A stretch of DNA of 64,000 nt from an uncultured bacterium (GTDB lineage: Bacteria > Omnitrophota > Omnitrophia > Omnitrophales > Aquincolibacteriaceae). Location of the stretch: the NCBI GenBank assembly GCA_964385615.1, contig CAYLPP010000009.1:3854-67853 (forward strand), read 5' to 3'. The position numbers and the translations under genes were made by a program. Position 1 is the stretch's first letter, and every line of letters begins with the position of its first letter. Positions 25,021-49,798 of the stretch are shown one piece after another. Below the pieces are notes generated by a model. That model saw only the letters and a list, made by a program, of their open reading frames with translations. It searched no databases and was not told the DNA's origin.

Positions 25021-25314
25021 ATGTCACAGCATCCCAGTCTGCGTATTGATTCCGTCGGCGCCAAGCACCGCAATGTGTTGACCCGTCTTGAAAGAATCAA
25101 GAAGCTTCAGGAAGAAAACAAGTGGAACGAACGTCCTTCAGTGCTCGGCCTTCCTAAGGTCAAGTCTATGAAGATCAAAGTTAAGAAGGTTAAGGAAGCA
25201 CCTGCTGAAGCAGGGGCTGAGGGAGCAGCTGCCCCCGGCGCCACTGCCGCTAAGCCTGCCGCTGCTGCCGCTAAACCGGCTGCTGCCGCTGCCAAGCCCG
25301 CAGGAAAGAAGTAA
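25021..25314 (+). CDS. Small basic protein with histone-H1-like (AAKP)n C-terminal tail (nucleoid-associated protein candidate)
   Basis: 97 aa, very basic, C-terminal AAKPAAAAAKPAAAAAKPAGKK repeats. Preceded by a consensus TATAAT -10 and a GAGAGAGG RBS. Confidence 0.6.
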   Translation: MSQHPSLRIDSVGAKHRNVLTRLERIKKLQEENKWNERPSVLGLPKVKSMKIKVKKVKEAPAEAGAEGAAAPGATAAKPAAAAAKPAAAAAKPAGKK

Positions 25315-25814
25315 TGGTTTCAATTCGCCGATTCTGCCAAGATGACGAAAAGGCGGTGAAGGAACTCATTAATTCGGTCATGACAGATGAATTTCATGAC
25401 TCTGCGTCTGCTTATCCCACGGAAGATCTTGAAAATATCGTCAAAACTTACGGCGGTCTTGGAGAGGCTTTTTTTGTGGCGGTCGCGGATGGTTCTAAAA
25501 TTGTCGGAACTGTTGCTGTTAAGAAAGAAGACGGCCGCATTGCTTTGATGCGGCGTCTTTTTGTATCCCGCACTCACCGCAACCAGCAGATTGGCGTTAA
25601 GCTGATTGATCATGTTCTGACTTTTTGCGATGAAGTAGGCTACAAGGAAATTATTTTCAGAACGACATCCCGGATGGAAGGCGCGAATAAACTTTGCCAG
25701 AAAAAGGGTTTTGTTCAGCGCGCTAAACTAAATCTCGGATCGTTAGAACTGCTGAAGTTTTCTCATCACGTCGAGTCTTTAAAGGGAGCTAAAAGCGCCA
25801 ACGGCGCTCATTGA
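25314..25814 (+). CDS. GNAT family N-acetyltransferase
   Basis: Acetyl-CoA binding motif region RRLFVSRTHRNQQIGVKLIDHV...GYKEIIF. Confidence 0.7.
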   Translation: MVSIRRFCQDDEKAVKELINSVMTDEFHDSASAYPTEDLENIVKTYGGLGEAFFVAVADGSKIVGTVAVKKEDGRIALMRRLFVSRTHRNQQIGVKLIDHVLTFCDEVGYKEIIFRTTSRMEGANKLCQKKGFVQRAKLNLGSLELLKFSHHVESLKGAKSANGAH

Positions 25815-26878
25815 TTTTTATGAAGCTTTTCGGGGTAGGGAAAAAAGCCGGAGACCTAAAAACGCTTTCTGAAAAAGAAATTCAGGTAAAGCTTTATGGG
25901 CATCTGCGTTCTCCTCACTCGGGGGCCTCGCGGGACGGTGGAATAGCCACTCTTCCTAAGCCGGCTCAAACCGCTTCTAACGTTGCTCCTCAGACTTTTA
26001 CGCCGGCCGACCGTACTCAGGCTTCTTTTTCCCAGCCCGCCGGTGCTCAACCCGGCCCGGCCCGGCCCGCTTTTAACAGCACCAAACCCTCGTCGTCCGT
26101 CCTTTCTGAACCGGCTCCCCAAAAAGCATTTCAGCCGGCTCGGTCATCCGGTAAGTTTTTCTCTTCGGTTTTTTCTTTTTTAGCTTCGAAACTGCTTCCG
26201 GGAATTGTTAAAATTTTAAAAAGCGTGATTGTTTTTGCGGTTCAGCTTGTGGTTGCGGCGTTAGGCGCGGTCACTCAAATTTTTCTAAAAATTGATTTTA
26301 AGAATCCCCGTGTCCGCCGTACCTTTTACTGGACCTTTGGTGTTGGGATTCTCTTTTTCCTTTTCGCAGGGATTCACGTTCTTAATATGAAACGGGAATT
26401 CGCCATGCGTCATCCCAACCGCGCGGTTCCTATTAAGCCGAAGATCCAAAAGCCGGCCCAGCAAATCCCCGCGCAGGTGGCTAGCCAGACACTGCTTTCA
26501 GAAAGTTCGTCCGCTGAATCCGCTCACGAGGATGTGAAACCTCTTGCTCCGGCAACTGCGAGTGGATCTCCTGCAAAAACCGTGACGGCGGTTGAGTCTG
26601 CTTCGAGCGGGGCTGAGGACGTTTCCGCTATAAAAGGGCAGGTTATCCAGATAGCGACTTTTGCCACTTTGTCAGATGCTGAAAAACTTTGTGACCGTTT
26701 AAAAACAGACGGTTGGAAGTGTTTCGCGAAACCGCTTGTTCGTCCCGGCGGCCGCACTTATTACTGCGTATTCCTTGGGCCTTTTAAAACGTACCAGGAT
26801 GCGGAGGCGAAGCTGAATGCTTTTAAGAAAAAAGAAATAGCGAAGCCTTTTCAAGACGCTTTTATTCGCTCCTTGTAA
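25811..26878 (+). CDS. SPOR-domain membrane protein with Pro-rich low-complexity region
   Basis: Pro/Ala/Gln-rich N-terminal half, TM helices, and a C-terminal SPOR-like domain (VIQIATFATLSDAEKLCDRLKTDGWKCFAKP...YCVFLGPFKTYQDAEAKLNAFKK). Confidence 0.5.
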   Translation: MIFMKLFGVGKKAGDLKTLSEKEIQVKLYGHLRSPHSGASRDGGIATLPKPAQTASNVAPQTFTPADRTQASFSQPAGAQPGPARPAFNSTKPSSSVLSEPAPQKAFQPARSSGKFFSSVFSFLASKLLPGIVKILKSVIVFAVQLVVAALGAVTQIFLKIDFKNPRVRRTFYWTFGVGILFFLFAGIHVLNMKREFAMRHPNRAVPIKPKIQKPAQQIPAQVASQTLLSESSSAESAHEDVKPLAPATASGSPAKTVTAVESASSGAEDVSAIKGQVIQIATFATLSDAEKLCDRLKTDGWKCFAKPLVRPGGRTYYCVFLGPFKTYQDAEAKLNAFKKKEIAKPFQDAFIRSL

Positions 26879-26888
26879 CGGGGGATTT

Positions 26889-27266
26889 ATGTGGGACGGC
26901 TTTAATAAACGAAAATTTCCGCGTGTCGCGCTTCAGTGTGAAGTTACCATCCTTTCCGATCTTTCGGGAAAACCTGTTTTGACCCTGACTGAAAATGTCG
27001 GTGTCGGCGGGGTTTGCCTGATTTTGGATCATCCTCTTGACCGATTTTCAAAATGCCGTATCAAGCTGGAATTAGGTGATTCAAAAAATACGGTTGAGTG
27101 TGATGGCCGTGTCGTCTGGGCAGTACCGACTCAGAGCGGGAAATCCGGCCGGAAGCAATTTGATACAGGGATTGAATTTACCGGTTTAGAACCTGAAACT
27201 GTTAACCAGGTTCGCGGTTTTTTGGAAGCCGAAATAAAAAAATCCCCTTCATCCGTCCTTAAGTAA
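26889..27266 (+). CDS. PilZ domain protein (c-di-GMP receptor)
   Basis: RKFPR (RxxxR) followed by the NVGVGGVCL (D/NxSxxG-like) motif, at PilZ spacing. Confidence 0.6.
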   Translation: MWDGFNKRKFPRVALQCEVTILSDLSGKPVLTLTENVGVGGVCLILDHPLDRFSKCRIKLELGDSKNTVECDGRVVWAVPTQSGKSGRKQFDTGIEFTGLEPETVNQVRGFLEAEIKKSPSSVLK

Positions 27267-27268
27267 TA

Positions 27269-27766
27269 ATGCCCTCGCAGTTTTCATTCGATATTATTTC
27301 TGAAGTTCCCGTCCAGGAGTTGGATAATGCGGTTAATCAGGCTGTTAAGGAGCTTTCCACTCGCTTTGATTTTAAGGGAAGTAAGAGCTCCATTGAACTT
27401 TTGAAGGCTGAAAATAAAATCAAAATTGTCGCTGATGATGATTTAAAGCTTCGCAACCTTCAAGACATCCTTAAGGGGCGGGTTGTGGCCCGAAAAATCT
27501 CCATAAAGGCGCTTGATTTCGGTACCCCTGAAAAGGCGTTTGAGGGGACTTTGCGCCAGGAAGTCACAATTGTACAGGGGATTCCCCAGGATAAGGCCAA
27601 GGGGATTATTAAGGCCATTAAAGACGGGGGATTTAAGGTCCAGGCAGCTATACAGGATGAGCAGATTCGGGTGACTTCCAAGAGCAAGGATGAGCTTCAG
27701 GCGGTCATGCAGCTCCTTAGGACCTCTCCTCCGGACATCCCCCTCCAATTCACCAACTTCCGGTAG
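27269..27766 (+). CDS. yajQ: YajQ family (UPF0234) nucleotide / c-di-GMP-binding protein
   Basis: MPSQFSFDIISEV...LSTRFDFKGSKSSIEL N-terminus is characteristic of YajQ. Confidence 0.85.
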   Translation: MPSQFSFDIISEVPVQELDNAVNQAVKELSTRFDFKGSKSSIELLKAENKIKIVADDDLKLRNLQDILKGRVVARKISIKALDFGTPEKAFEGTLRQEVTIVQGIPQDKAKGIIKAIKDGGFKVQAAIQDEQIRVTSKSKDELQAVMQLLRTSPPDIPLQFTNFR

Positions 27767-27770
27767 TCAT

Positions 27771-27806
27771 AAGCCTTCCTGAGGGGAGGAAGGAGATTTT
27801 TTTTGT
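27771..27806 (+). terminator. Intrinsic terminator after yajQ (CCTTCCT...AGGAAGG stem + T8)
   Basis: 7-bp stem followed by TTTTTTTT directly after the yajQ stop. Confidence 0.65.
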
Positions 27807-27945
27807 CCGCCCCTTGTATTTCAAAAAGTCATGTGTTAGTCTTTTTTTGTTCCTGAAAAAAAGTCGGATTTTATTGTGTCCGCTTATTTTAAGACTTTTG
27901 AAAGTTATAGTTTTTTAACAAATGAAAATTGAGGGGAGGTGGCCC

Positions 27946-28341
27946 GTGGATAGTAAAGAACGTAGAAGGTTTAAACGCTTTGATGCTTACATGAGCGTGA
28001 AGTTTAAGGTTTCGGGTCAGGATGAGCTGAAAGGTGTCAGCCTGAGCCGTGACTTGTCCCGTGAAGGAATCTGCATTAATTCAAATGAAGATCTAAAAGA
28101 AGGGACTACTCTGGATATTGAAATTAATATTCCGGATGATCCCAAGCCTGTTTTTACTTCCGGTAAGGTAATGTGGTCGCATCCTTCCGAAGAAAAAAAA
28201 CAAGGTTACGATCAAGGAGTCCGTTTTCTTCTGATGGATCCTGTTGATAAGTTCCGCGTTTTAGATTATGCCTACAATCACTGGCTTGAAACAAAAGTCA
28301 ATGATTACGCGGATCCCGAAGAAATTTCCGAAACCGAATAA
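27946..28341 (+). CDS. PilZ domain protein (second copy)
   Basis: RRRFKRF RxxxR motif and DLSREGICI motif. GTG at 27946 has a strong GAGGGGAGG RBS 7 nt upstream; ATG at 27922 is the alternative start. Confidence 0.55.
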   Translation: MDSKERRRFKRFDAYMSVKFKVSGQDELKGVSLSRDLSREGICINSNEDLKEGTTLDIEINIPDDPKPVFTSGKVMWSHPSEEKKQGYDQGVRFLLMDPVDKFRVLDYAYNHWLETKVNDYADPEEISETE

Positions 28342-28355
28342 TTTCTGATTCTGAA

Positions 28356-29825
28356 ATGAAAGGCTTCCTGCTTGCGCTGGATCAGGGCACGACAGGAAGC
28401 CGGGCTCTTCTTTATGACCGCGCGGGGCATGTCGTCGGATCAGCCTACCGTGAATTTACCCAGTACTATCCTAAACCCGGCTGGGTCGAGCATGACCCCG
28501 AAGAGATTTGGAATTCCACCCGCCAAGTTATTCTTTCCGCGTTAAAAAAAGCCAAAGCTAAAACTTCCGAGGTTCGATGGATTGGGATTACCAACCAGAG
28601 AGAAACGGCAATTTTGTGGAGCCGGAAAACCGGAAAGCCTGTTCATCGCGCGATTGTCTGGCAGGACCGCCGGACGGCGGGATTGTGCGACAGTTTCAAA
28701 CGCCGCGGACTTGAAAAACTGATTCGTGATAAAACCGGTTTAGTTCTCGATCCCTACTTTTCCGCCACAAAAATTCATTGGATGCTTGAGCATGTGCCCG
28801 GTCTTAGAAAACGCGCTCGATCCGGAGAAATCTGTTTTGGAACGGTCGACACCTGGCTTTTGTGGAAACTGACTGCGGGAAAAGTTCACGCGACGGATTT
28901 TACCAATGCTTCGCGCACACTCCTCTTCAACATCAAAACCCGCAAGTGGGACCCTGATCTTTTACGGATATTTAAAATCCCTGCGTCTGTTCTCCCGAAA
29001 GTTTTTGATTCCGGCTCTGATTTTGGTCCGGCCGCGCCCGCGCTCCTTCCAAACGCGAGAATTCATGCCGTCATAGGTGATCAGCAGGCAGCCCTCTATG
29101 GACAATCCTGCTACAGCGCCGGTCAGGCTAAGAACACATACGGAACGGGTTGTTTTCTGCTGATGAATCTTGGAAAAAGTTTCCAGAAGCCTCCTTTCGG
29201 ACTTTTGACAACGCTTGCTTGCGACCGGAACGGTAAAAGCGTTTACGCTTTCGAAGGAGCGGTTTTTATCGCGGGGGCGGTCATGCAGTGGCTCCGTGAC
29301 GGGTTGCGCTTTTTTCGAAAAGCTTCAGAATCGGTCAGTCTGATTCACGGTCTTAAGGATACGGGCGGCGTGACTTTGATTCCTGCGTTTGTTGGATTGG
29401 GGTCGCCTTACTGGAATCCGCATGCCCGCGGAATGATTTCTGGAATCACGCGCGGTACCACTCGCGCTCATATTATCCGGGCCGCGCTTGAATCGATCGC
29501 TCAGCAAAGCGCGGATGTTTTGGAGGCCATGCAGAAGAATGGCCGTCATCATCTTCGTGAACTTAAAGTGGATGGGGGAGCGACCCGTAATGATTTTCTA
29601 ATGCAGTATCAGGCGGATCTTATGGGAATACCTGTTCTGGTTTGCGATGTTTCAGAATCCACGGCCTGGGGTGCCGCCAAGCTGGCGGGGTATACTTCCG
29701 GTTTCTGGGGGCGTGCCCAGGAAACTCCGGCCAGCCGTAAATTTAGGCCTCGAATATCACGCCGTGAGGCCGAATCGCTTCGGCAGGTTTGGAAGCGCGA
29801 AATAAACAGAATTTCATTCATTTAA
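28356..29825 (+). CDS. glpK: Glycerol kinase
   Basis: FGGY kinase N-terminus LALDQGTTGSRALLYD and conserved GlpK blocks (AILWSRKTGKP, GTVDTWLLWKLT). Confidence 0.9.
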   Translation: MKGFLLALDQGTTGSRALLYDRAGHVVGSAYREFTQYYPKPGWVEHDPEEIWNSTRQVILSALKKAKAKTSEVRWIGITNQRETAILWSRKTGKPVHRAIVWQDRRTAGLCDSFKRRGLEKLIRDKTGLVLDPYFSATKIHWMLEHVPGLRKRARSGEICFGTVDTWLLWKLTAGKVHATDFTNASRTLLFNIKTRKWDPDLLRIFKIPASVLPKVFDSGSDFGPAAPALLPNARIHAVIGDQQAALYGQSCYSAGQAKNTYGTGCFLLMNLGKSFQKPPFGLLTTLACDRNGKSVYAFEGAVFIAGAVMQWLRDGLRFFRKASESVSLIHGLKDTGGVTLIPAFVGLGSPYWNPHARGMISGITRGTTRAHIIRAALESIAQQSADVLEAMQKNGRHHLRELKVDGGATRNDFLMQYQADLMGIPVLVCDVSESTAWGAAKLAGYTSGFWGRAQETPASRKFRPRISRREAESLRQVWKREINRISFI

Positions 29826-29880: not shown

Positions 29881-31905
29881 ATGTCTTTCTTCAATTTTGG
29901 CCGAAAACTGGATCCCGCTAAGGAGTATTCGCTCTCCGATATTCCTGTCTTTTCCTCATTAACCCTTGCTGAGCAGAAGCTCATTGAGAAAAAAGCGCGC
30001 ATTGTTGAGTTTAAACGCGGAGACATCGTTTATCAGGAAGGGACGCCTTCGGATGCCTTCTATGTGGTTATTTCCGGCCGTTTCCGGCTCTTCCTGAAAG
30101 CCAAGTCCGGAATTCCTGAAAAAACGGTTATTTACTTCTACCGAGGTGATCACTTCGGCGAAGCTTCGATGCTGACCGGACGTCCGCATAGCGCTACGGT
30201 TGAAGCCAAACGTGACGGTCTAATCCTGCGTATTGATCGAGAGGATTTCCTGGAACTGATTAAGCATATTCCCGGGATATCCCAGCAGTTGAACCGTTCC
30301 ATGGGGATACGGCTTGGTAAAATCGAGAATTCCAGCCGCCAGGAAGTTCGGATTGCCGCGCTTTACGGCAATCAGGAAACTCCCGCGGTTTTCCAGTTCT
30401 GGGCGGATATGGCGGATGAGTTGACCCGGGAAACCAAGCGCAAGGTTATTGTCCTGGATTTTGTTTCGCCGTTTCATCCCTCAGCGGGTAAGGAACTTCA
30501 GATCAATGCCCCCTCGACGTTTGATCTGAGTAAGCACGATCCCACCAGCGATGCTGATTTGAAAAGTACTGTGATCAAGCATCCGCGGGGTTTCAGTTAT
30601 CTGCACGTGAATCATTCTCAGGAAAATTCGGGAGATGAAAAACGTCTTTTCGCTTTGATGACGTTTTTAACTTACCGCTACGATTATTTGCTTTTGAGAA
30701 TGCCCCAAAATATTTCAGATTTCAGTTTTAAAGTCATTAAGCACGCTGACCTGGTTTACGTTTACGCGGGTTCTCGGGTCTCCGATCTTCAAGGGTGCGC
30801 GGACGCGGTCAGAGAGTTTACGGAGCATTTTGCTTTCAATAAAAACGAACTCCGGATTGTTGTTCCGAGTGATCAGGAAACGCATGAAGCTTTTGAGAAG
30901 AAAGAGGAAGTTATCGGCACCCGTATTTTTTCGGTCTTACCGCCGAAGTCAACTCAAGCTGAGCGTTATCAGGGCGCGATCCGCTATCTGGCTAAGGAAT
31001 TCTCCGGGCGTCTCTTGGGTCTGGCGCTTGGAAGCGGTGCGGCTTATGGTTTGGCGCACGTGGGGGTTTTAAAGGTTTTGGAGCGGGAGGGGATTTTCCC
31101 GGATATTATCGCGGGGTCAAGTATCGGCGCTTTGGTAGGAGGTATCTGGGGCGCCGGATACAACGCGGATGAAATTGAGAAAATCGCGAAAAGCATCGAC
31201 AAAAAAACCGGCTTTTTCAAAATTCTAGGTTTTCGTGATATGTCGATCGCTCACCGCGGATTTTTTAAAGGCAATCAGGTGGTCCGGTTCATTGACAGCT
31301 TTTTGGATAATAAAACTTTCCAGGATTTAAGAATCCCGGTCAAGATTGTCGCCGCGAATCTTTTCACGTCCGAAGAAGTGGTTATGGATACCGGGAAAGT
31401 TTCAGAAGCCATTCGCGCCAGTATTTCGATCCCGGGCATTTTTAGGCCGTTTGCCTGGCAGGGAAAGCAGCTGATTGACGGCGGAGTCATTGATCCGCTT
31501 CCGGTTGAGCTTTTGCATAACCTTGGCGTTAAGAAGGTGATCGCCGTGAATGTTCTCCCGGGGCCAAAAGACCGGGTGGAAAAAAACCGGATTCGCGAAG
31601 AAGATACTCAAAGGCAATTGCGTGAGGCCGCGTCGCGCGGAATGCTTCAAAAAGCTTTGGCTTCGTCAATGCACAAAGTCTATGACCGCTATGCCGTGAA
31701 CATTTTTAACGTCATCATGAATACCATCCAGTTTCTGGAGTATGAGATTGCCAAATCTTCCGGGATGCAGGCCGATGTCATGATCCACGCGATCGTCCGG
31801 GACGCCCACTGGGCGGAGTTTTACTCCCCGGAAAAGTTCATCAAGGTAGGGGAGGAAAAGGCCCAGGAACACCTTGAGGAAATTAAGCGGCTCCTGGCCG
31901 AATAA
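29881..31905 (+). CDS. Cyclic-nucleotide-binding domain protein fused to patatin-like phospholipase
   Basis: N-terminal cNMP-binding (CAP-like) domain (FYVVISGRFRLF...GEASMLTG). C-terminal patatin with GLALGSGAAYG oxyanion motif, GSSIG (GxSxG) nucleophile elbow and DGG catalytic Asp motif. Confidence 0.8.
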   Translation: MSFFNFGRKLDPAKEYSLSDIPVFSSLTLAEQKLIEKKARIVEFKRGDIVYQEGTPSDAFYVVISGRFRLFLKAKSGIPEKTVIYFYRGDHFGEASMLTGRPHSATVEAKRDGLILRIDREDFLELIKHIPGISQQLNRSMGIRLGKIENSSRQEVRIAALYGNQETPAVFQFWADMADELTRETKRKVIVLDFVSPFHPSAGKELQINAPSTFDLSKHDPTSDADLKSTVIKHPRGFSYLHVNHSQENSGDEKRLFALMTFLTYRYDYLLLRMPQNISDFSFKVIKHADLVYVYAGSRVSDLQGCADAVREFTEHFAFNKNELRIVVPSDQETHEAFEKKEEVIGTRIFSVLPPKSTQAERYQGAIRYLAKEFSGRLLGLALGSGAAYGLAHVGVLKVLEREGIFPDIIAGSSIGALVGGIWGAGYNADEIEKIAKSIDKKTGFFKILGFRDMSIAHRGFFKGNQVVRFIDSFLDNKTFQDLRIPVKIVAANLFTSEEVVMDTGKVSEAIRASISIPGIFRPFAWQGKQLIDGGVIDPLPVELLHNLGVKKVIAVNVLPGPKDRVEKNRIREEDTQRQLREAASRGMLQKALASSMHKVYDRYAVNIFNVIMNTIQFLEYEIAKSSGMQADVMIHAIVRDAHWAEFYSPEKFIKVGEEKAQEHLEEIKRLLAE

Positions 31906-32006: not shown

Positions 32007-33197
32007 ATGACGGACATCGTAATCGCGGGTGGAGTGCGCACGCCTCAGGGAAATCTGGGCGGAGCGTTGAAAGAATTTACCAATCATCAGCTGGGCAGTC
32101 TTACGGTCAAGGCTCTCCTTGAGAAAACCAAACTTCCTGTTACCGAAATTGATGAAGTTATTTTCGGCTGTGTCGGCCAGCAGTCAGACGCGGCCAATGT
32201 GGCGCGAGTGATTTCTCTCATGTCAGGCATTCCGAAAGAAGTTACGGCGTATACGGTCGCCCGCAACTGCGCTTCCGGTCTTCAGGCGATTACCAGCGCG
32301 TGTCAGGCCATTAAGGCCGGCGATGCAGAGTTGATCGTCGCGGGCGGTGCGGAGGTTATGTCCTCGTCTCCATTTGTGAACCGCGATCTTCGTTTTGGAA
32401 AGCGCCTGCGTAATTCCGCGCTGATCGATACGATCTGGGAAGGTTTAACGGATCCGATTACGGGATTGATCATGGGGCAAACGGCAGAAAATCTTGTAAC
32501 TGAGTTTGGAATTACCCGCCAGGCGCAAGATGAATTTTCAGTGTTATCCCACCAGCGCGCATTCCGCGCGACTCGTGAAGGTAAATTTAAGGACGAAACA
32601 TTTAAAATTATGATTCCGAAAAAGTTTTACGGCAAGGAACTCCCGCCGGAGACTTTTGTGAATGATGAAGGAATCAATCCAGCTTTGAACGTACAGACTC
32701 TTTCTCAATATCCGCCTATTTTTAAACAGGACGGTTCGGTGACGGCTGGGAATTCCTGTCCAATCTCCGACGGCGCGGCCGCGGTGATCGTGACGACAAG
32801 AGAAAAAGCGCAGAAGCTCAATCTCGAGATTCTAGGCACGGTCCGTGGATACAGCTACGCGGGTGTGGAGCCGGAGCGTATGGGCATTGGCCCCGCTCAC
32901 GCGGCCCCTCTGGCTTTTAAAAAGGCCGGGGTTACGCTGAAGGATATTCAGTTAATTGAAATCAACGAAGCTTTTGCCGCTCAATATCTGGCGGTTGAAA
33001 AGAAACTGGAGCTTAATCGCGATATCGTTAACGTGAACGGCGGCGCGATTGCTTTAGGGCACCCGGTCGGGGCGACGGGAGCGAGAATTGTAGTCACCCT
33101 TCTTTACGAAATGAAACGCAGAAACCTATCCCTGGGTCTTGCTTCCATGTGCGTCGGCGGCGGGCTTGGCGGAGCCATTATTTTAGAGAGAAAATAA
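32007..33197 (+). CDS. Acetyl-CoA C-acyltransferase (thiolase)
   Basis: NCASGLQAI active-site Cys block and C-terminal [10 protein letters not shown] block. Confidence 0.9.
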
Positions 33198-34415
33198 ATG
33201 TATATTTATAAAGCAGGTGTGGTGGGTGCTGGAACTATGGGCGCGGAAATCGCGCAAGTCATTACTTACGCGGGATTGCCCGTAGTTTTAAAAGACAATA
33301 CGGAAGAGCTGGTCCAGAAAGGGATCGGGAAAATCCGCGCGATTTATCAGCGCCGTGTCGACAAGGGTAAAATGACGCAGGGGGACATGGAGAGCAAGAT
33401 GGCTCTCGTGATGCCGACCACGAAGTACGAGGATTTAAAAGACGTAGATATCATTATTGAGGCGGTTCCTGAAAAAATGGAAATTAAACGGAAGGTTTTT
33501 CAGGAGCTTGACGCGATCATGCCGGAGAGCGCGATTTTCGCGAGCAATACCTCCGCTCTTTCGATCTCTGAAATGGGCGCGGCCACAAAGCGCGCGGGAA
33601 AAGTAATCGGAATGCATTTCTTTTATCCGGCGTCGGTGATGAAGCTTGTTGAGGTGATTCCCGGCCTTGCGACCTCCGATGAAACTGTGGATGACGTTAA
33701 CAGCTTTACGGAATCGCTGCGTAAAATTCCGGTGAAGGTCAATGAATGCGCCGGATTTTTGGTTAACCGGCTTCTGATGCCCTATTTGAACGAAGCGGCT
33801 TTTTGTTTGCAGGAAGGTTCCGCGTCGCGCGAGCAGATTGACGAAGCGGTGCGCGGATTCGGACTCCCGATGGGCCCCTTTGTGCTGGTCGATCAGCTTG
33901 GTATTGATGTTTGCCTGGATGCGACCAAAGTGCTTCTGGATTCCTACGGAAACCGTATGAAGCCCGCGGAAATCTGGCAGGCCTACTATGACGCGAAATA
34001 TTACGGCGCCAAGACCGGCGCGGGTTTTTATTCCTACGACAGTGCCAAACCGGACATTACCCCGAAATTGATTACCGATATCCAGGCAAAAACCGGTAAA
34101 AAAGGAACAGCCTTTTCGATTGAGCGCATTATTTATCCGATGATTAACGAAGCGGCCTACTGTCTGGAAGAAAATGTAGCCAAGGCGGCGGATATTGATA
34201 TCTCGATGCTGGCCGGTGTCGGTTTTCCTCAGGATAAAGGAGGCCCCTTGAAATTAGCGGATGAACTGGGCCTGGATCATGTTCTTGAAGTGCTCGAGAA
34301 ACTTTGCAAAGAGCACGGTGACCGTTTCTGGCCCGCGCCCCGGCTTAAACGAATGGTGCGCGCAAATTTTCTGGGCAAGAAAAGCGGACGCGGATTTTTT
34401 GAGTACACAGCTTAA
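33198..34415 (+). CDS. 3-hydroxyacyl-CoA dehydrogenase
   Basis: N-terminal Rossmann motif KAGVVGAGTMGAEIAQV and C-terminal 3HCDH domains. Confidence 0.85.
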   Translation: MYIYKAGVVGAGTMGAEIAQVITYAGLPVVLKDNTEELVQKGIGKIRAIYQRRVDKGKMTQGDMESKMALVMPTTKYEDLKDVDIIIEAVPEKMEIKRKVFQELDAIMPESAIFASNTSALSISEMGAATKRAGKVIGMHFFYPASVMKLVEVIPGLATSDETVDDVNSFTESLRKIPVKVNECAGFLVNRLLMPYLNEAAFCLQEGSASREQIDEAVRGFGLPMGPFVLVDQLGIDVCLDATKVLLDSYGNRMKPAEIWQAYYDAKYYGAKTGAGFYSYDSAKPDITPKLITDIQAKTGKKGTAFSIERIIYPMINEAAYCLEENVAKAADIDISMLAGVGFPQDKGGPLKLADELGLDHVLEVLEKLCKEHGDRFWPAPRLKRMVRANFLGKKSGRGFFEYTA

Positions 34416-34427
34416 CAAGGAGGATTT

Positions 34428-35219
34428 ATGACGGATACCCAGACGCAGTTTCTGAAAGTCAAAGTTGAAGATCAGATTGCCGTCCTGACGTTTGATAATC
34501 CTCCCGTTAATATTTTGACCCCGCCGGCTCTTAAAGAAATTGACGATACGTTTACTTCTCTCGAAGGTAGAGATGACGTGAAGGTCATTGTTTTTACGAC
34601 GGCCGGAACGAACGCGTTTATTGCCGGCGCGGATATTAAGGTAATCGGTTCTATTTCTTCTTCAAAACAGGCAATGGAGCTTGCGCTCAGTGGTCAGTCC
34701 GTGCTTAACAGGATTGAAAATTCCAAAAAAGTCACGATCGCGGCCATTCAAAGCGTCTGCGTGGGCGGGGGGAATGAATTGGCTATGGCGTTTCATATGC
34801 GAATTGCTTCTGAGCGCGCAAAATTCGGTCAGCCTGAAATCAATCTGGGGATTATCCCCGGTTTTGGCGGAACCCAGCGTCTAGCGCGTATTGTCGGTCT
34901 TGCTAAAGCCCGTGAGTTAAACTTAACCGGAGACATGATCACGGCTCAGGAAGCTTACCGTATAGGGCTCGTGAATCGTCTGGTCCCGGATGGTGAATTG
35001 ATCAAACAAACAATGGGACTTGCCAAAAAAATCGCCATGAAAAGCCGCGTCGCGCTGGAAGCCGCGGAAGCGGCAATGAAGAAGGGGATTACGATGAGTC
35101 TTCCTGATGGGTTGAAATGGGAAGCGGAAATGTTTTCAAAATTAGCAGAAACGCAGGATATGAAAGAGGGTGTCCGCGCGTTTCTTGAGAAACGTCAGGC
35201 TAAATTTCAGGATAAATAG
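34428..35219 (+). CDS. Enoyl-CoA hydratase (crotonase family)
   Basis: Crotonase fold with FIAGADI oxyanion-hole region and GGGNELAM block. Confidence 0.85.
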   Translation: MTDTQTQFLKVKVEDQIAVLTFDNPPVNILTPPALKEIDDTFTSLEGRDDVKVIVFTTAGTNAFIAGADIKVIGSISSSKQAMELALSGQSVLNRIENSKKVTIAAIQSVCVGGGNELAMAFHMRIASERAKFGQPEINLGIIPGFGGTQRLARIVGLAKARELNLTGDMITAQEAYRIGLVNRLVPDGELIKQTMGLAKKIAMKSRVALEAAEAAMKKGITMSLPDGLKWEAEMFSKLAETQDMKEGVRAFLEKRQAKFQDK

Positions 35220-35222
35220 AAG

Positions 35223-35798
35223 ATGATAAAAGGACGCGCGCTGTATTTAAAGGTTGCTGGCGGAATGGTGACAGCTTCGCTTTTACTTGCGGTTCCGCCT
35301 CTTTTCGCGGAAGCTCAGCCTCAAGCGAAGACCTGGTTTGGTTTTGGAAAAGGCCAGAGTTCAGAAGCGGGTTCTCCTAAAGAAAATGAATCCGCGGCTG
35401 TGAGCGCTAAAGGCGGGAGTAATTCCAATTCCGCTCAGCTTGCGAAAATGAGTCCGGCTGAGAAAAATTTGATCCGCGTTCAGCAGATTCAGCAGGCTGA
35501 ACAGGCTAAAAAGATTCAGGACACCAACCGCGCGGTTTCCAACGTGATGAGAGTGTCTTCCGCAGCAAATGCCGCCAGTTTGAGTCAGTCTGCCGACGTG
35601 CTCAGGATTTCAGAGCAAGCCCGGACGCAGAACCGTATTATGGCGAATCTTGAAGCTTCAAAAAACACAGTGCCGCCGGTCAAAAAGACATCGGTCGATG
35701 AAATTTTGAAGCAGGAAAAAATCCGCCAGCACCGCCAAACCGCCGAGCAGAGCCGCCGCGCGATTGAGGCGATTGAAAAAAACTCGAATCTCAGATAA
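35223..35798 (+). CDS. Hypothetical secreted Gln/Ala-rich coiled-coil protein
   Basis: Signal peptide (VTASLLLAVPPLFAEA) with a low-complexity Q/A-rich remainder. Embedded in the fatty-acid operon. Confidence 0.35.
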   Translation: MIKGRALYLKVAGGMVTASLLLAVPPLFAEAQPQAKTWFGFGKGQSSEAGSPKENESAAVSAKGGSNSNSAQLAKMSPAEKNLIRVQQIQQAEQAKKIQDTNRAVSNVMRVSSAANAASLSQSADVLRISEQARTQNRIMANLEASKNTVPPVKKTSVDEILKQEKIRQHRQTAEQSRRAIEAIEKNSNLR

Positions 35799-35808
35799 GG
35801 CAGGCTTA

Positions 35809-37632
35809 ATGCCAAAGAGCGAGTTGGATCAAAATCTGGTGCAGCTTTACCTCGACCGGGTTTCCCGCTATCAAAATCGTCCCGCCCTCTATTTTAAAGA
35901 TAAAACCCGTACTAATGCTTATATCCCGATCAGCTGGACGAATTGGTCCATCCGGGTCCGGGATACAGCGCTGGCTTTAAGGGCCTTTGGCGCCTCAAAA
36001 GGCGCGCGTATCGGTATTCTTTCGGAAAACAGGCCGGAATGGACTTGTGCGGATCTTGGGATTTTGAGTCTGGGATGTATGAATGTTCCGGTTTATCCCA
36101 CCTCGTCCTGTCAGGATTTAGCGTATTACATTGAAAACTCCGAAATGGAATTTTTCTTCGTCTCCTCGCAAGAGCAGTATCAAAGAGTTCGTGACGTGCT
36201 GATCAACAGCCCCTTGCGGAAGATTATCACTTTCGATCCCGTCGCTGAAAAGCATGACAAGGTTATTTCATTTTCAGATTTTTTGGAGGCAGGGAAGGCG
36301 GAGCATAAACGGCTTCCGGATTTTTTCCAGCAAAGCGTGAATTCGGTTAATCCTGATGATCCCGCGACAATCATCTACACGTCAGGAACCACCGGAGCGC
36401 CGAAAGGCGTGGTTTTGACTCATCGGAATTTTGTCGCCAATTATCTGGGGTCCAAAGAATGGATTAAGATTTCCGATGCCGATATTGCCCTTTCTTTTCT
36501 TCCGCTTAATCATGTTTTTGAGCGTCTGGCCGGTTATTACTTCATGACTTTTCATGGAGCCGCGATTGCCTACGCTGAGAGTATGCAGACGGTAGCGCAG
36601 GATATGGCTTTGGTGCGGCCCACGGTAGCGGCCGCGGTCCCGAGGTTTTATGAAAAAGTTTATGCCGGAATCCTTGAAAAGGTGCAGACCGCCTCGCCTC
36701 TGCAGAAAAAGATTTTTTATTGGGCCGTCGGAACGGGGAAAAAAAGATACGCGGACCGTTTGACAGGCCGGCGCGGTTTCGGGGACGAATTCCAATACAC
36801 CCTCGCCAAACTCCTGGTCTTTAATAAAATTAAAAAGAAATTGGGCGGTAGACTGAGATTTTTTATCTCCGGCGGGGCTCCGCTCTCAAAAGAACTCGCG
36901 GAGTTTTTCTATGCCGCAGACATTCTGATTTTGGAAGGTTACGGCCTGACGGAAACTTCGCCCGTCATCGCTGTGAATACCGCGCGCGATTTCAGGTTTG
37001 GAACCGTGGGCCGTCCTATTCCAAACATTGAGGTTAAAATCGCGGAAGACGGTGAAATTTTGACGAAGGGCCTCTGCGTGATGGCCGGCTATTATAGGAA
37101 TCCGGAGGCGACCCGTGAAGTGATGAGCGGCGGCTGGTTTCACACGGGGGATATCGGAGTTATCGAAAAAGATGGTTTCCTCAGAATTACGGACCGGAAG
37201 AAAGATATTATCGCGACTTCCGGAGGAAAAAAGGTCTCTCCGCAGAATATTGAAAATCTGATTCAGATGGACCCGCTTTTTTCGATGGTTGTGGTTGTGG
37301 GGGACCGGCGGAATTATCTGACCGCGCTGATTGTGCCAAACCGGGCTGAGGTGATGCGTAAGGCTGAGGAGCTGGGCTGCGCTGACCGGGCCTGGGAATT
37401 GATTCTGGCGGATCCGCGGATTTATGAATGGGCGGATCAAAGGCTCCAGGAGAAGATGCGGGGAATGGCTTCTTATGAGCAGATTAAGTATTTCACGTTT
37501 CTTCCAGCGGATTTGAGTCTGCAGAATGGGGAATTGACGCCGACCATGAAGGTTAAGAGGAAGGTTGTGATCCAGAAATACGCCGATTTAATTGACGCGA
37601 TGTATCGCCGTGGGGCGGGGCAGCCGGCATGA
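35809..37632 (+). CDS. Long-chain fatty-acid--CoA ligase (AMP-binding family)
   Basis: AMP-binding signature IIYTSGTTGAPKGV. Start set at the ATG at 35809 to avoid overlap with the upstream ORF. Confidence 0.85.
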   Translation: MPKSELDQNLVQLYLDRVSRYQNRPALYFKDKTRTNAYIPISWTNWSIRVRDTALALRAFGASKGARIGILSENRPEWTCADLGILSLGCMNVPVYPTSSCQDLAYYIENSEMEFFFVSSQEQYQRVRDVLINSPLRKIITFDPVAEKHDKVISFSDFLEAGKAEHKRLPDFFQQSVNSVNPDDPATIIYTSGTTGAPKGVVLTHRNFVANYLGSKEWIKISDADIALSFLPLNHVFERLAGYYFMTFHGAAIAYAESMQTVAQDMALVRPTVAAAVPRFYEKVYAGILEKVQTASPLQKKIFYWAVGTGKKRYADRLTGRRGFGDEFQYTLAKLLVFNKIKKKLGGRLRFFISGGAPLSKELAEFFYAADILILEGYGLTETSPVIAVNTARDFRFGTVGRPIPNIEVKIAEDGEILTKGLCVMAGYYRNPEATREVMSGGWFHTGDIGVIEKDGFLRITDRKKDIIATSGGKKVSPQNIENLIQMDPLFSMVVVVGDRRNYLTALIVPNRAEVMRKAEELGCADRAWELILADPRIYEWADQRLQEKMRGMASYEQIKYFTFLPADLSLQNGELTPTMKVKRKVVIQKYADLIDAMYRRGAGQPA

Positions 37633-38474
37633 TGGATGACTTTTTTAAAAGCGGTTCCAACCGTCTCCACTACCGCTACTACCCGGTCGAGGGGCACCGC
37701 GGGGTTTGCGTTAGCCTGCACGGTCACGGGGAACACGCGGGGCGGTTTGAAAAAATGCAGAAGATGCTGGAGTCTGAAAAAGTTTCGTTCGCGATTTTTG
37801 AGTATCGCGGGCAGGGGCGGTCGGAAGGCCAGGATGTTTACGTTCAGACTTTAAATGACTACGTGGAAGATATGATCGCCTTCCGGAATTTTCTTGAAAC
37901 CCGCTTTCAGGTCCGCGAAAAAATTATCCTTCATGGAAATAGTTTGGGAGGCCTGGTGGGGGTTTATTGGGCCCTGAAATATCCAGAAAAAATCCGGGGG
38001 ATGATTCTTTCCTCGCCTTGTCTGGGAATGCGCCTTCCGCCGTTTCTGATGAAAGTGAATCAATTCATGAACCGCACGGCTCCGCGGTTTATTTACCGCA
38101 ATCCTGTTTATCCTCCTCATTTAACTCACAGTCAGGAAGAAATGGAAATTTATAAAAGTGATCCGCTTATCAAGAGGCGGATTTCAGCGCGCCTTGTGCA
38201 TGAAATGGTTTACCGCGGGCACGATCTCGAATCTTATGACGAGTTTGACTTCCCGTTTCCGGTTTACATGATGCTTGCGGAGCTGGAGAAGGTTGTGGAC
38301 GCGGAGAAGGCCAAGCTGTTTTTCCAGAAGGTGAACGCGCCGGATAAAAAGCTCCGTACTTTCCCGGACTTTTATCACGAGCTGTTCCATGAGCTCGGGC
38401 AGGACCAGGCATTTGAAACCTTCCGGGAATACCTGAAGCTGATCCTCAGTTCAACCCAGCCGGGCTCTTTGTAA
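37629..38474 (+). CDS. Alpha/beta hydrolase (lysophospholipase / monoacylglycerol-lipase-like)
   Basis: HGHGEH N-terminal box and GNSLGG (GxSxG) nucleophile elbow. Confidence 0.75.
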   Translation: MMDDFFKSGSNRLHYRYYPVEGHRGVCVSLHGHGEHAGRFEKMQKMLESEKVSFAIFEYRGQGRSEGQDVYVQTLNDYVEDMIAFRNFLETRFQVREKIILHGNSLGGLVGVYWALKYPEKIRGMILSSPCLGMRLPPFLMKVNQFMNRTAPRFIYRNPVYPPHLTHSQEEMEIYKSDPLIKRRISARLVHEMVYRGHDLESYDEFDFPFPVYMMLAELEKVVDAEKAKLFFQKVNAPDKKLRTFPDFYHELFHELGQDQAFETFREYLKLILSSTQPGSL

Positions 38475-38637
38475 AAAATACTACCATCCGGCTTTTCCTG
38501 CGATTATAATGTCGCTTCGTTTTACCTATCTTTTATATTTAAAATTTTTTGGTCCCGTCCTAAAGGACGGCGGAGTTTATAAGTGGGCTTCTTGGCGTTT
38601 TTTGCCGGATGACCTGTCATCTCTATAAAAAGTTTTT

Positions 38638-38710
38638 GGGCCCGTAGCTCAGCTGGGAGAGCGCTACAATCGCACTGTAGAGGCCGGGAGTTCGATCCTC
38701 CCCGGGTCCA
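38638..38710 (+). tRNA. tRNA-Ala (anticodon CGC)
   Basis: Hand-folded cloverleaf: 7-bp acceptor stem with G3:U70 (the Ala identity pair), D-arm GCTC/GAGC, anticodon stem CTACA/TGTAG, loop AUCGCAC with U33 and A37, T-arm GGGAG-TTCGATC-CTCCC, discriminator A73. CCA is not encoded. Confidence 0.9.
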
Positions 38711-38801
38711 TTTCCACGCCTGCTGGAGACTTTCAAAGTCTACGCGGCATTACCCGCGCATGAGCGCGGGTGCCCGGGTCCATTCGCTACGCCTAAGCGC
38801 C

Positions 38802-46391: not shown

Positions 46392-46405
46392 AAGGCGGTC
46401 AGACC

Positions 46406-49779: not shown

Positions 49780-49798
49780 CCCGGAGGAAAAAGAGAGG

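What the first reader, a model, noticed from the sequence alone, without database searches (positions are those of the whole stretch)
26889..28341. Compact c-di-GMP effector cluster: PilZ - YajQ - PilZ
Two stand-alone PilZ-domain proteins flank a YajQ-family protein, and YajQ proteins are established c-di-GMP/nucleotide binders in other bacteria. That gives three putative second-messenger receptors in 1.5 kb, with an intrinsic terminator after yajQ and a strong GAGGGGAGG RBS on the second PilZ. No GGDEF/EAL/HD-GYP enzyme lies in this window, so the cognate cyclase is elsewhere. Immediately downstream are glpK and a cNMP-binding patatin phospholipase, giving a region rich in nucleotide-second-messenger effectors tied to lipid and glycerol metabolism.
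Basis: partly seen in the sequence, partly recalled or inferred. Interest (0 to 1): 0.55.

Follow-up and report, generated by a model that had tools for sequence, protein, structure and literature searches.

The report
PilZ–YajQ–PilZ genes in Omnitrophota
Two small PilZ-type c-di-GMP receptor genes do flank a yajQ gene in this uncultivated Omnitrophota genome. All three belong to known families, but small PilZ genes recur beside yajQ in several unrelated arrangements, a modest new clue that the poorly understood YajQ works with c-di-GMP signalling.

Summary
PilZ1 (26889-27266), YajQ (27269-27766) and PilZ2 (27946-28341, GTG start behind the GAGGGGAGG ribosome-binding site) all pass curated HMM cut-offs. 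Both PilZ models fold as a six-stranded barrel plus C-terminal helix and match solved PilZ domains.

PilZ2 has invariant RxxxR and DLSxxG motifs. PilZ1 has RxxxR but a family-wide NxGxGG, with Gly where the ligand-contacting Ser sits. YajQ carries K36/K140/D141 where Salmonella STM0435 needs R33/R137/D138, so c-di-GMP binding by YajQ is open.

The window is from a Candidatus Omnitrophota MAG. The "cluster" is two units:
- PilZ1-yajQ, median 8 nt apart in 27 loci.
- PilZ2, which has its own conserved promoter and heads a glpK / cNMP-patatin / beta-oxidation gene row.

The whole roughly 15-gene block is syntenic in this clade, so that conservation alone proves little. More telling, unrelated PilZ genes sit beside yajQ in other Omnitrophota-like lineages and in Kiloniellaceae. 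PilZ density is 46 per 100 kb within 500 nt of yajQ against about 0.5 further out.

No GGDEF, EAL or HD-GYP gene lies in the window. These are new members of known families with a suggestive, undescribed neighbourhood. Interest is modest.

The parts
25811..26878 (+). SPOR-domain membrane protein. It lies immediately upstream, 10 nt before PilZ1, and is probably in the same operon.
   Evidence: Pfam SPOR 35.1 bits. Conserved directly upstream of PilZ1 in the clade.
26889..27266 (+). PilZ1: a 125-aa single-domain PilZ protein with RKFPR (R8-R12) and the variant second motif N36-V-G38-V-G-G41.
   Evidence: PF07238 44.9 bits. AF2 pLDDT 79, six strands plus C-terminal helix. Foldseek top hits are MotI, YcgR, Alg44 and MrkH PilZ domains. 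R8, R12, G38, G40 and G41 are invariant in 75 homologues.
27269..27766 (+). YajQ-family protein (165 aa). It starts 2 nt after the PilZ1 stop codon.
   Evidence: PF04461 208.5 bits; NF003819 202.9 bits against a cut-off of 146. PDB XC_3703, HI1034 and STM0435 match at E about 1e-33. The PilZ1-yajQ gap is -1 to 23 nt, median 8, in 27 distinct loci.
27774..27804 (+). Intrinsic terminator: stem-loop CCTTCCT-GAGGGG-AGGAAGG followed by T8.
   Evidence: A strict hairpin + T-run scan finds the like in only 2 of 25 distinct orthologous spacers, so it is not a conserved feature.
27814..27842 (+). Conserved promoter for PilZ2: -35 TTGTAT (27814-27819), a 17-nt spacer ending TGT, and -10 TAGTCT (27837-27842).
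   Evidence: The motif CTTGTAA-N17(..TGTGy)-TATAkT is found in 20 of 25 distinct yajQ-PilZ2 spacers, 90-174 nt before the start codon. The promoter role is inferred from conservation.
27874..27906 (+). Second conserved element in the PilZ2 leader (TTGTGTCCGCTTATTTTAAGACTTTTGAAAGTT), with a palindromic core sTTA-N3-TAAs. It could be an operator or a second promoter; its function is unknown.
   Evidence: Alignment of 20 leaders. RNAalifold finds no consensus structure and Rfam has no match.
27931..27939 (+). Shine-Dalgarno element GAGGGGAGG, 6 nt before GTG 27946.
   Evidence: Sequence. Homologues are 130-131 aa, which agrees with the GTG start.
27946..28341 (+). PilZ2: a 131-aa single-domain PilZ protein with R7-x-x-x-R11 and D36-L-S38-R-E-G41, and a strongly conserved C-terminal helix (MDPVDKFRVLDYAYNHWLE).
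   Evidence: PF07238 54.7 bits. Both motifs are invariant in 120 homologues. AF2 pLDDT 74, six strands plus helix. Foldseek hits are MotI, PP4397, YcgR and Alg44. The family is narrow: 447 hits in 5.8e9 proteins, the best 120 at 71% identity or more.
28356..29825 (+). Glycerol kinase GlpK, 14 nt after PilZ2.
   Evidence: TIGR01311 643.5 bits against a cut-off of 590. Follows PilZ2 in most relatives and is absent in some.
29881..31905 (+). Phospholipase with a cyclic-nucleotide-binding domain and a patatin domain.
   Evidence: cNMP_binding 75.5 bits, Patatin 118.6 bits. It follows PilZ2 (with or without glpK) wherever enough downstream DNA is held: 23 of the loci listed; in four others the DNA ends within glpK.
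32007..38474 (+). Same-strand lipid-catabolism genes: thiolase, 3-hydroxyacyl-CoA dehydrogenase, enoyl-CoA hydratase, a 191-aa protein of unknown function, acyl-CoA synthetase and an alpha/beta hydrolase (Hydrolase_4).
   Evidence: Pfam. Partly conserved downstream of the patatin gene in relatives.

Best explanation
This is a conserved stretch of a Candidatus Omnitrophota chromosome in which two c-di-GMP-related units lie side by side.

Unit 1 is the tail of an operon (SPOR protein, PilZ1, YajQ). PilZ1 and YajQ are made together: their genes are 2 nt apart here and almost abut in every relative. They most likely act as a pair, with a small PilZ adaptor working with, or on, the two-RRM-domain nucleotide-binding protein YajQ.

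Unit 2 starts at its own conserved promoter. PilZ2 is a canonical c-di-GMP receptor and the first gene of a row encoding glycerol kinase, a cNMP-regulated patatin lipase and beta-oxidation enzymes. c-di-GMP made by cyclases encoded elsewhere would bind PilZ2. PilZ2 would then use its invariant C-terminal helix to dock on a partner, by analogy with known single-domain PilZ adaptors. This would tie glycerol and lipid breakdown to the c-di-GMP state.

Shown here: family membership, folds, motifs, gene order, its conservation, and the recurrence of PilZ next to yajQ. Inferred: ligand binding, the PilZ1-YajQ partnership, PilZ2's partner and the metabolic output.
For: - Family and fold.
- Motifs: PilZ2 RxxxR and DLSxxG are invariant in 120 sequences. 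PilZ1 RxxxR is invariant.
- Coupling: the PilZ1-yajQ gap has a median of 8 nt in 27 loci.
- Conservation in the clade: PilZ1 is present in 23 of 25 species-representative loci, and PilZ2 in 22 of the 23 with enough DNA.
- Independent recurrence with PilZ genes sharing 34% identity or less:
  - L037: YajQ-PilZ-PilZ, then REC-GGDEF.
  - L090 and L092: YajQ, one gene, then PilZ-PilZ.
  - L102 and L106-L110: PilZ 7-50 nt upstream of yajQ. Sister loci L107 and L113 have the same flanks but no PilZ.
  - Four Kiloniellaceae genomes: PilZ transcribed divergently from yajQ.
- Density: PilZ ORFs are 46 per 100 kb within 500 nt of yajQ, against 0.7 and 0.4 per 100 kb further out. A rough event-level binomial gives P about 3e-4.
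- Unit 2: PilZ2 has its own conserved promoter, is always followed by glpK and/or cNMP-patatin, and is missing together with them in L030.
- Literature: single-domain PilZ proteins act as trans-acting adaptors, mostly through the C-terminal helix (10.1101/814665, 10.1101/2020.02.11.943704, PMC11250160). [quoted passage not shown]
Against: - The whole block (lepA lepB GH1 SPOR sbp GNAT SPOR PilZ1 YajQ PilZ2 glpK patatin) is syntenic in this clade. Conservation of the trio there may be plain inheritance.
- PilZ1 is absent in L023 and L027, and PilZ2 in L030, so neither is obligatory for YajQ.
- 21 of the 29 L037-like loci, and all non-Omnitrophota loci except the Kiloniellaceae, show no PilZ near yajQ.
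- PilZ1 lacks the ligand-contacting Ser.
- YajQ has Lys where STM0435 needs Arg, and only some YajQ proteins bind c-di-GMP (PMC4199771).
- No LysR-type partner like that of XC_3703 and no GGDEF/EAL/HD-GYP gene lies in the window.
- No binding or interaction data exist for any of these proteins.
- The loci sampled were chosen by YajQ similarity. They are not a random census.
Confidence: 0.55

Rival explanations
1. Neighbours by descent only. The three genes are functionally unrelated. YajQ is a housekeeping nucleotide- or RNA-binding protein, and the PilZ genes act on other targets. The order persists only because this Omnitrophota clade keeps the whole 15-gene block.
For: The entire block from lepA to the acyl-CoA synthetase is syntenic. 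PilZ1 or PilZ2 can be lost singly. In the 50 other non-Omnitrophota loci yajQ sits beside RodZ-like, YchF or RimO genes, not PilZ. The E. coli, Clostridium and B. cereus YajQ proteins prefer ATP/GTP (PMC4199771). YajQ was among candidates from an E. coli RNA-interactome pull-down that were tested for RNA binding (PMC10201417).
Against: Unrelated PilZ genes lie next to yajQ in at least four other arrangements, including a second phylum. One insertion sits exactly in front of yajQ in L109 and L110 but not in L107 or L113. PilZ density near yajQ is strongly skewed. PilZ1 and yajQ nearly abut.
Confidence: 0.25
2. Triple receptor cluster. PilZ1, YajQ and PilZ2 each bind c-di-GMP on their own and act as three parallel receptors.
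For: The NCBIfam model name and score. XC_3703, a proven binder, also has Lys at the position of STM0435 R33. Basic residues are kept at both positions in the clade. Gly at the Ser position occurs in 5 of 102 diverse single-domain PilZ clusters, so it is a tolerated variant.
Against: Only a sub-group of YajQ proteins binds c-di-GMP (PMC4199771). R137 of STM0435 is Lys here, while XC_3703 keeps Arg. The Ser of [D/N]hSxxG contacts the ligand (MapZ Ser37; 10.1101/814665) and is never present in PilZ1.
Confidence: 0.15
3. The PilZ1-YajQ pair does not depend on c-di-GMP. PilZ1 would be a ligand-blind adaptor, like the PilZ of type IV pili (PA2960, XC1028), that merely escorts YajQ. Only PilZ2 senses c-di-GMP.
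For: The Ser-to-Gly change is invariant in PilZ1. Large groups of single-domain PilZ proteins are predicted non-binders (10.1101/2020.02.11.943704).
Against: RxxxR, the Asn, the hydrophobic residue and the final Gly of the second motif are all strictly kept in PilZ1, unlike known ligand-blind PilZ proteins that lose both motifs. The PilZ genes beside yajQ in other lineages have fully canonical motifs.
Confidence: 0.15

Closest known systems
Single-domain PilZ adaptor proteins (MapZ/PA4608 of P. aeruginosa; Xanthomonas single-domain PilZ adaptors; the PilZ domains of MotI/DgrA and YcgR)
   Same: Size of 113-131 aa. Six-stranded barrel plus C-terminal helix. RxxxR motif, and for PilZ2 the full [D/N]hSxxG motif. 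The best structural matches are these proteins.
   Different: Sequence identity to any solved PilZ is 12-22%. PilZ2 forms a narrow family seen only in Omnitrophota-type sequences: only 3 clusters at E of 1e-30 or better among 1.84e9 representatives. It is unusually conserved, at 71-88% identity. PilZ1 has Gly in place of the ligand-contacting Ser. The partners are unknown, and no chemotaxis or flagellar genes lie nearby.
YajQ-family c-di-GMP effectors (XC_3703 of X. campestris, CdgL of Lysobacter, PA4395, Smlt4090, STM0435 of Salmonella)
   Same: Full-length match to the family models above curated cut-offs. E about 1e-33 to the solved structures 5b7w, 1in0 and 8k4i. D141 matches STM0435 D138, and K36 matches the Lys of XC_3703.
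   Different: K140 replaces the Arg (R137) needed in STM0435 and kept in XC_3703. No LysR-type partner gene lies in the window. The organism is an Omnitrophota MAG, not a gammaproteobacterium. Here, unlike in any described case found in the literature searches, the gene is flanked by PilZ genes.
NTE/RssA-like patatin phospholipases with cyclic-nucleotide-binding domains
   Same: The downstream 674-aa protein has cNMP_binding and Patatin domains, and its best NCBIfam match is RssA.
   Different: The match is below the RssA cut-off (143.9 bits against 272). A stretch of about 230 residues between the two domains has no family match. The conserved pairing with a PilZ gene did not come up in the papers searched or read here.

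Membership tests
PilZ domain (PF07238), canonical c-di-GMP-binding type: PilZ2 | Match to the Pfam model above the gathering score | tested here: met
   54.7 bits against 22.5.
PilZ domain (PF07238), canonical c-di-GMP-binding type: PilZ2 | Six-stranded beta-barrel followed by a C-terminal alpha-helix | tested here: met
   AF2 model with strands 16-22, 28-34, 41-46, 55-61, 69-80 and 88-96 and helix 99-120. Foldseek hits are PilZ domains.
PilZ domain (PF07238), canonical c-di-GMP-binding type: PilZ2 | [quoted passage not shown] | tested here: met
   R7-R-F-K-R11 and D36-L-S38-R-E-G41. R7, R11, D36, L37 and G41 occur in 120 of 120 homologues and S38 in 119 of 120.
PilZ domain (PF07238), canonical c-di-GMP-binding type: PilZ2 | Binds c-di-GMP | not testable with these tools
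   Needs DRaCALA, ITC or SPR.
PilZ domain (PF07238), canonical c-di-GMP-binding type: PilZ1 | Match to the Pfam model above the gathering score, and the barrel + helix fold | tested here: met
   44.9 bits. AF2 gives six strands plus helix 102-118, pLDDT 79. Foldseek hits are MotI, YcgR, Alg44 and MrkH. hhalign to the PilZ2 family gives probability 96%.
PilZ domain (PF07238), canonical c-di-GMP-binding type: PilZ1 | RxxxR motif | tested here: met
   R8-K-F-P-R12. R8 and R12 are invariant in 75 sequences.
PilZ domain (PF07238), canonical c-di-GMP-binding type: PilZ1 | [D/N]hSxxG motif with the ligand-contacting Ser | tested here: not met
   N36-V-G38-V-G-G41. G38 is invariant in 75 sequences. 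Gly at this position occurs in 5 of 102 diverse single-domain PilZ clusters.
YajQ / UPF0234 family (PF04461, NF003819) | Full-length match above the curated cut-offs | tested here: met
   PF04461 208.5 bits; NF003819 202.9 bits against 146. PDB matches at E about 1e-33 over residues 6-165.
c-di-GMP-binding sub-group of YajQ (XC_3703 / STM0435 type) | Residues shown to be needed for c-di-GMP binding in STM0435 (R33, R137, D138) | tested here: inconclusive
   The window protein has K36, K140 and D141. XC_3703, a binder, has K, R and D. Basic residues are kept at both positions in 20 relatives.
c-di-GMP-binding sub-group of YajQ (XC_3703 / STM0435 type) | Works through a LysR-family transcription factor partner | tested here: not met
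   No LysR-type domain was found in any main ORF of 110 aa or more in the window. A partner elsewhere in the genome cannot be excluded.
c-di-GMP-binding sub-group of YajQ (XC_3703 / STM0435 type) | Binds c-di-GMP in preference to ATP/GTP | not testable with these tools
   An et al. 2014 (PMC4199771) show this differs between family members.

The most novel reading that the evidence does not exclude
PilZ and YajQ form a previously undescribed two-protein c-di-GMP signalling module. A small PilZ adaptor, made together with YajQ, would confer or tune c-di-GMP responsiveness of YajQ, or pass the signal on to it. The module would have been assembled repeatedly, in several Omnitrophota lineages and in Kiloniellaceae. 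In this clade it would be joined to a second PilZ that puts glycerol and lipid catabolism under c-di-GMP control in these very small, possibly host-dependent bacteria.
Probability: 0.3. Interest if true: 0.55.

Novelty: new member of a known kind. Interest (0 to 1): 0.35.

Why it matters
YajQ is present in a very large share of bacteria, yet its core role is unsettled. It has been reported as an ATP/GTP binder, an RNA-binding candidate, a phage phi6 transcription factor, and a c-di-GMP effector in a few gammaproteobacteria.

Repeated placement of unrelated PilZ genes directly beside yajQ is independent genomic evidence that YajQ is wired into c-di-GMP signalling well outside the proteobacteria studied so far. 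It names a concrete partner to test.

It also points to a possible link between c-di-GMP, a cNMP-regulated lipase and glycerol/fatty-acid breakdown in Omnitrophota, a phylum without routine cultures.

If the pairing is only inherited gene order, the locus is ordinary.

Tried and rejected
- **Riboswitch in the yajQ-PilZ2 spacer.** Rfam at gathering score over the window found only a tRNA. A permissive scan of 26500-28500 gave only chance-level hits with E above 1. Rejected.
- **Conserved RNA structure in the PilZ2 leader.** RNAalifold on 20 leaders gave no structure, energy 0.0. The conserved blocks are better read as a promoter plus a DNA site.
- **Exact-sequence look-up of the window YajQ.** It returned nothing, although a 100% identical protein is in the protein collection. 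Context came from relatives instead.
- **Pfam scan of 134 neighbour ORFs of non-Omnitrophota yajQ loci.** PilZ was not among the 25 families listed. This turned out to be an undercount, because my longest-ORF choice in high-GC DNA hid three Kiloniellaceae PilZ genes. They were recovered with a custom HMM and confirmed by Pfam.
- **Terminator conservation.** A strict hairpin + T-run scan found one in only 2 of 25 spacers, so the terminator is not a conserved part of the design.
- **A cyclase or phosphodiesterase in the window.** None was found.
- **Orthology between PilZ genes of the different arrangements.** Identity is 34% or less, so they are treated as separate sub-families.
Full report
**What is there.** On the + strand, three short ORFs lie at 26889-27266, 27269-27766 and 27922/27946-28341.
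- The outer two match Pfam PilZ (PF07238) at 44.9 and 54.7 bits, against a gathering score of 22.5.
- The middle one matches DUF520/YajQ (PF04461) at 208.5 bits. It also matches NCBIfam NF003819 'YajQ family cyclic di-GMP-binding protein' at 202.9 bits, against a cut-off of 146.
- glpK (28356-29825) and a 674-aa cNMP_binding + patatin protein (29881-31905) follow.
- The stem-loop 27774-27793 plus T8 after yajQ is found by the terminator scan.
- GAGGGGAGG (27931-27939) lies 6 nt before GTG 27946. Homologues are 130-131 aa, so PilZ2 starts at 27946, not at ATG 27922.

**Source.** The nearest YajQ, PilZ1 and PilZ2 proteins come from metagenome-assembled genomes named Candidatus Omnitrophota/Omnitrophica. 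A 100% identical copy of each sits on a 106,617-bp NCBI contig. A TIGR04137 'small basic protein' at 25021-25314 scores 71.3 bits against a cut-off of 50. Two large ORFs without any Pfam domain (2537 and 1491 aa) fit that phylum, which is known for giant genes (10.1101/2023.11.21.568195).

**Motifs and folds.** Canonical PilZ domains bind c-di-GMP through RxxxR and [D/N]hSxxG. In MapZ the contacts are Arg9, Arg13, Asp35 and Ser37 (10.1101/814665).
- PilZ2 has R7-R-F-K-R11 and D36-L-S38-R-E-G41. Across 120 homologues these residues are invariant, apart from one Cys at S38.
- PilZ1 has R8-K-F-P-R12 but N36-V-G38-V-G-G41. G38 is invariant across 75 homologues, so the Ser is never present.
- Among 102 diverse single-domain PilZ clusters, that position is Ser in 87 and Gly in 5. 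The variant is uncommon but not unique.
- AlphaFold2 models (pLDDT 79 and 74) both give six strands and a C-terminal helix.
- Their best PDB matches are PilZ domains of MotI, YcgR, Alg44, MrkH, PlzA and PP4397.
- The two families are distant paralogues: hhalign probability 96%, 21% identity.

PilZ2 is strikingly conserved, at 71-88% identity. This includes an invariant C-terminal helix, MDPVDKFRVLDYAYNHWLE. Its family is narrow. Only 3 clusters reach E of 1e-30 or better among 1.84 billion representatives, before the scores fall into generic PilZ.

**YajQ.** It aligns over its full length with the solved XC_3703, HI1034 and STM0435 proteins at E about 1e-33. STM0435 needs R33, R137 and D138 to bind c-di-GMP (PMC10978029). 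The window protein has K36, K140 and D141, while XC_3703 (Kd 2 uM; PMC4199771) has K, R and D. Basic residues are kept at both positions in relatives. An et al. found that only some YajQ proteins prefer c-di-GMP, and that those of E. coli, Clostridium and B. cereus prefer ATP/GTP. Binding by this YajQ is therefore open.

**Operon layout.**
- The SPOR-domain gene ends 10 nt before PilZ1.
- PilZ1 ends 2 nt before yajQ. In 27 distinct loci this gap is -1 to 23 nt, median 8.
- After yajQ comes a spacer of 148-340 nt. In 20 of 25 distinct spacers it carries CTTGTAA-N17(..TGTGy)-TATAkT, 90-174 nt before the PilZ2 start. In the window this is -35 at 27814-27819 and -10 at 27837-27842.
- A second conserved block with a palindromic core lies at about 27874-27906.
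- No Rfam family and no conserved RNA fold were found.
- The terminator is not conserved under a strict scan, appearing in 2 of 25 spacers.
- PilZ2 is followed after 14 nt by glpK.

The 'cluster' is therefore two units: SPOR-PilZ1-YajQ, and PilZ2-glpK-cNMP-patatin with thiolase, 3-hydroxyacyl-CoA dehydrogenase, enoyl-CoA hydratase, acyl-CoA synthetase and an alpha/beta hydrolase behind it.

**Conservation.** Look-ups and a scan of one genome per species gave 25 Omnitrophota loci with YajQ 63-84% identical to the window protein.
- PilZ1 is directly upstream in 23. It is absent in L023 and L027, where the SPOR gene abuts yajQ.
- PilZ2 is downstream in 22 of the 23 loci with enough DNA. It is absent in L030.
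- However, the whole block (lepA lepB GH1 SPOR sbp GNAT SPOR PilZ1 YajQ PilZ2 (glpK) cNMP-patatin) is syntenic. This conservation cannot separate function from inheritance.
- In L030, PilZ2 is missing together with glpK and patatin. That places PilZ2 with the downstream genes.

**Independent recurrence.** This is the more informative result.
- L037 is a divergent Omnitrophota genome (YajQ 53% identical). Its yajQ is followed directly by two other PilZ genes and, after a reverse-strand gene, a REC-GGDEF gene.
- A metagenome scan with that YajQ found the same PilZ pair one gene further downstream in L090 and L092.
- It also found a PilZ gene 7-50 nt upstream of yajQ in L102 and in L106, L108, L109 and L110.
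- The sister loci L107 and L113 have identical flanks but no PilZ.
- In four Kiloniellaceae (Alphaproteobacteria) genomes, a 115-119-aa PilZ gene is transcribed divergently 170-480 nt from yajQ.

All of these pass the Pfam cut-off. All carry RxxxR plus [D/N]xSxxG, except L037:932-1288, which has DIGGRG. Between arrangement types they share 34% identity or less.

Across all fetched loci, PilZ ORFs number 75 within 500 nt of yajQ (46 per 100 kb). At 0.5-2 kb and 2-4 kb there are only 3 and 2 (0.7 and 0.4 per 100 kb). Counting arrangement types as events, 6 of 8 fall in the nearest bin, with binomial P about 3e-4. This figure is rough, because independence is assumed.

**Limits.**
- The loci were picked by YajQ similarity.
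- 21 of the 29 L037-like loci, and 50 of the 54 non-Omnitrophota genome loci, have no PilZ nearby. There yajQ sits by RodZ-like, YchF or RimO genes.
- My PilZ HMM may miss divergent domains.

**Rest of the window.** No GGDEF, EAL or HD-GYP domain and no LysR-type regulator occurs in any main ORF of 110 aa or more. Omnitrophota do encode GGDEF proteins, as shown by L037 and by giant proteins described in 10.1101/2023.11.21.568195. A cyclase elsewhere in the genome is therefore plausible.

**Most likely working.**
- PilZ2 is a bona fide c-di-GMP receptor. It probably acts as a trans-acting adaptor through its invariant C-terminal helix, as described for single-domain PilZ proteins (10.1101/814665, 10.1101/2020.02.11.943704, PMC11250160). 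Its partner is probably encoded in the glpK/patatin row.
- PilZ1 and YajQ are made together and probably act as a pair.
- Whether PilZ1 (Ser replaced by Gly) or YajQ (Arg replaced by Lys) binds c-di-GMP is undecided.
- All binding and interaction steps are inferred.

**Known or new.** The proteins are new members of known families. I found no paper describing a PilZ-yajQ neighbourhood. The recurrent pairing is a small new comparative observation and a testable lead on YajQ function. No new kind of system is shown. I score interest at 0.35. The module reading has a probability of about 0.3, and would deserve about 0.55 if true.

Noticed in passing
window 27814-27906: The yajQ-PilZ2 spacer holds a promoter-like motif (CTTGTAA-N17-TATAkT) conserved in 20 of 25 relatives. 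About 35 nt downstream is a second conserved block with a palindromic core (sTTA-N3-TAAs) ending in AAAGTC. This could be an operator for the glpK/lipase/beta-oxidation row. No RNA structure was found.
   Followed up: partly
window 29-7642 and 58697-63172: Two very large ORFs (2537 and 1491 aa) have no Pfam match at E of 1e-4 or better. A preprint reports giant genes in Omnitrophota, often followed by small pilZ genes. The PilZ genes studied here are not adjacent to either ORF.
   Followed up: no
window 25021-25314: A 97-aa protein matches TIGR04137 'small basic protein' (Chlam_Ver_rRNA, 71.3 bits against a cut-off of 50). It has an Ala/Lys/Pro-rich tail (AAKPAAAAAKPAAAAAKPAGKK). It is conserved in the block between two SPOR-domain genes and is followed by a GNAT acetyltransferase.
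   Followed up: partly
L109:3644-3985 and L110:3643-3984, compared with L107 and L113: Sister metagenome loci share the same flanks: a V-ATPase K-like subunit upstream, and a deoxyhypusine-synthase-like gene and an agmatinase-like gene downstream. They differ by a PilZ gene inserted 49-50 nt in front of yajQ. This looks like a gain or loss event exactly at yajQ.
   Followed up: partly
L064:1671-2018(-), L072:1394-1741(-), L077:3189-3536(-), L080:3159-3518(-): Four Kiloniellaceae/Pelagibius (Alphaproteobacteria) genomes carry a 115-119-aa canonical PilZ gene (RRSLR..DVSIGG) transcribed divergently from yajQ. This is a second-phylum instance of the pairing.
   Followed up: partly
L037:2378-3628; L092:7729-8493: A REC-GGDEF gene (a putative response-regulator diguanylate cyclase) lies three genes after yajQ in the L037-type arrangement, YajQ-PilZ-PilZ-LysE(-)-REC-GGDEF. 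The GGDEF match covers only profile positions 3-93 of 161. L092 has the same N-terminus, but the held DNA ends before any GGDEF region and it was not scanned.
   Followed up: partly
L032-L088 (non-Omnitrophota loci): In Oligoflexia, Eremiobacterota/Vulcanimicrobiota and many Alphaproteobacteria, yajQ's neighbours are repeatedly a RodZ-like protein (HTH_25 + RodZ_C), YchF GTPase and RimO/MiaB-type radical SAM enzymes. In Omnitrophota the upstream neighbour is a SPOR-domain membrane protein of similar topology to RodZ or FtsN.
   Followed up: no
window 49715-52618: A 967-aa ORF combines transaldolase (TAL_FSA) and phosphoglucose isomerase (PGI) domains. It overlaps the preceding glycogen-phosphorylase-like ORF by 65 nt, so the real start is probably later.
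   Followed up: no
window 45783-47500: A two-component pair: an HTH_17 + receiver-domain regulator and a HisKA/HATPase_c kinase. The ORFs overlap by about 200 nt as called. It is the only other signalling system seen in the window.
   Followed up: no
window 38637-38711: A single tRNA-Ala (anticodon CGC) lies between the lipid-catabolism row and the NAD synthase gene.
   Followed up: no
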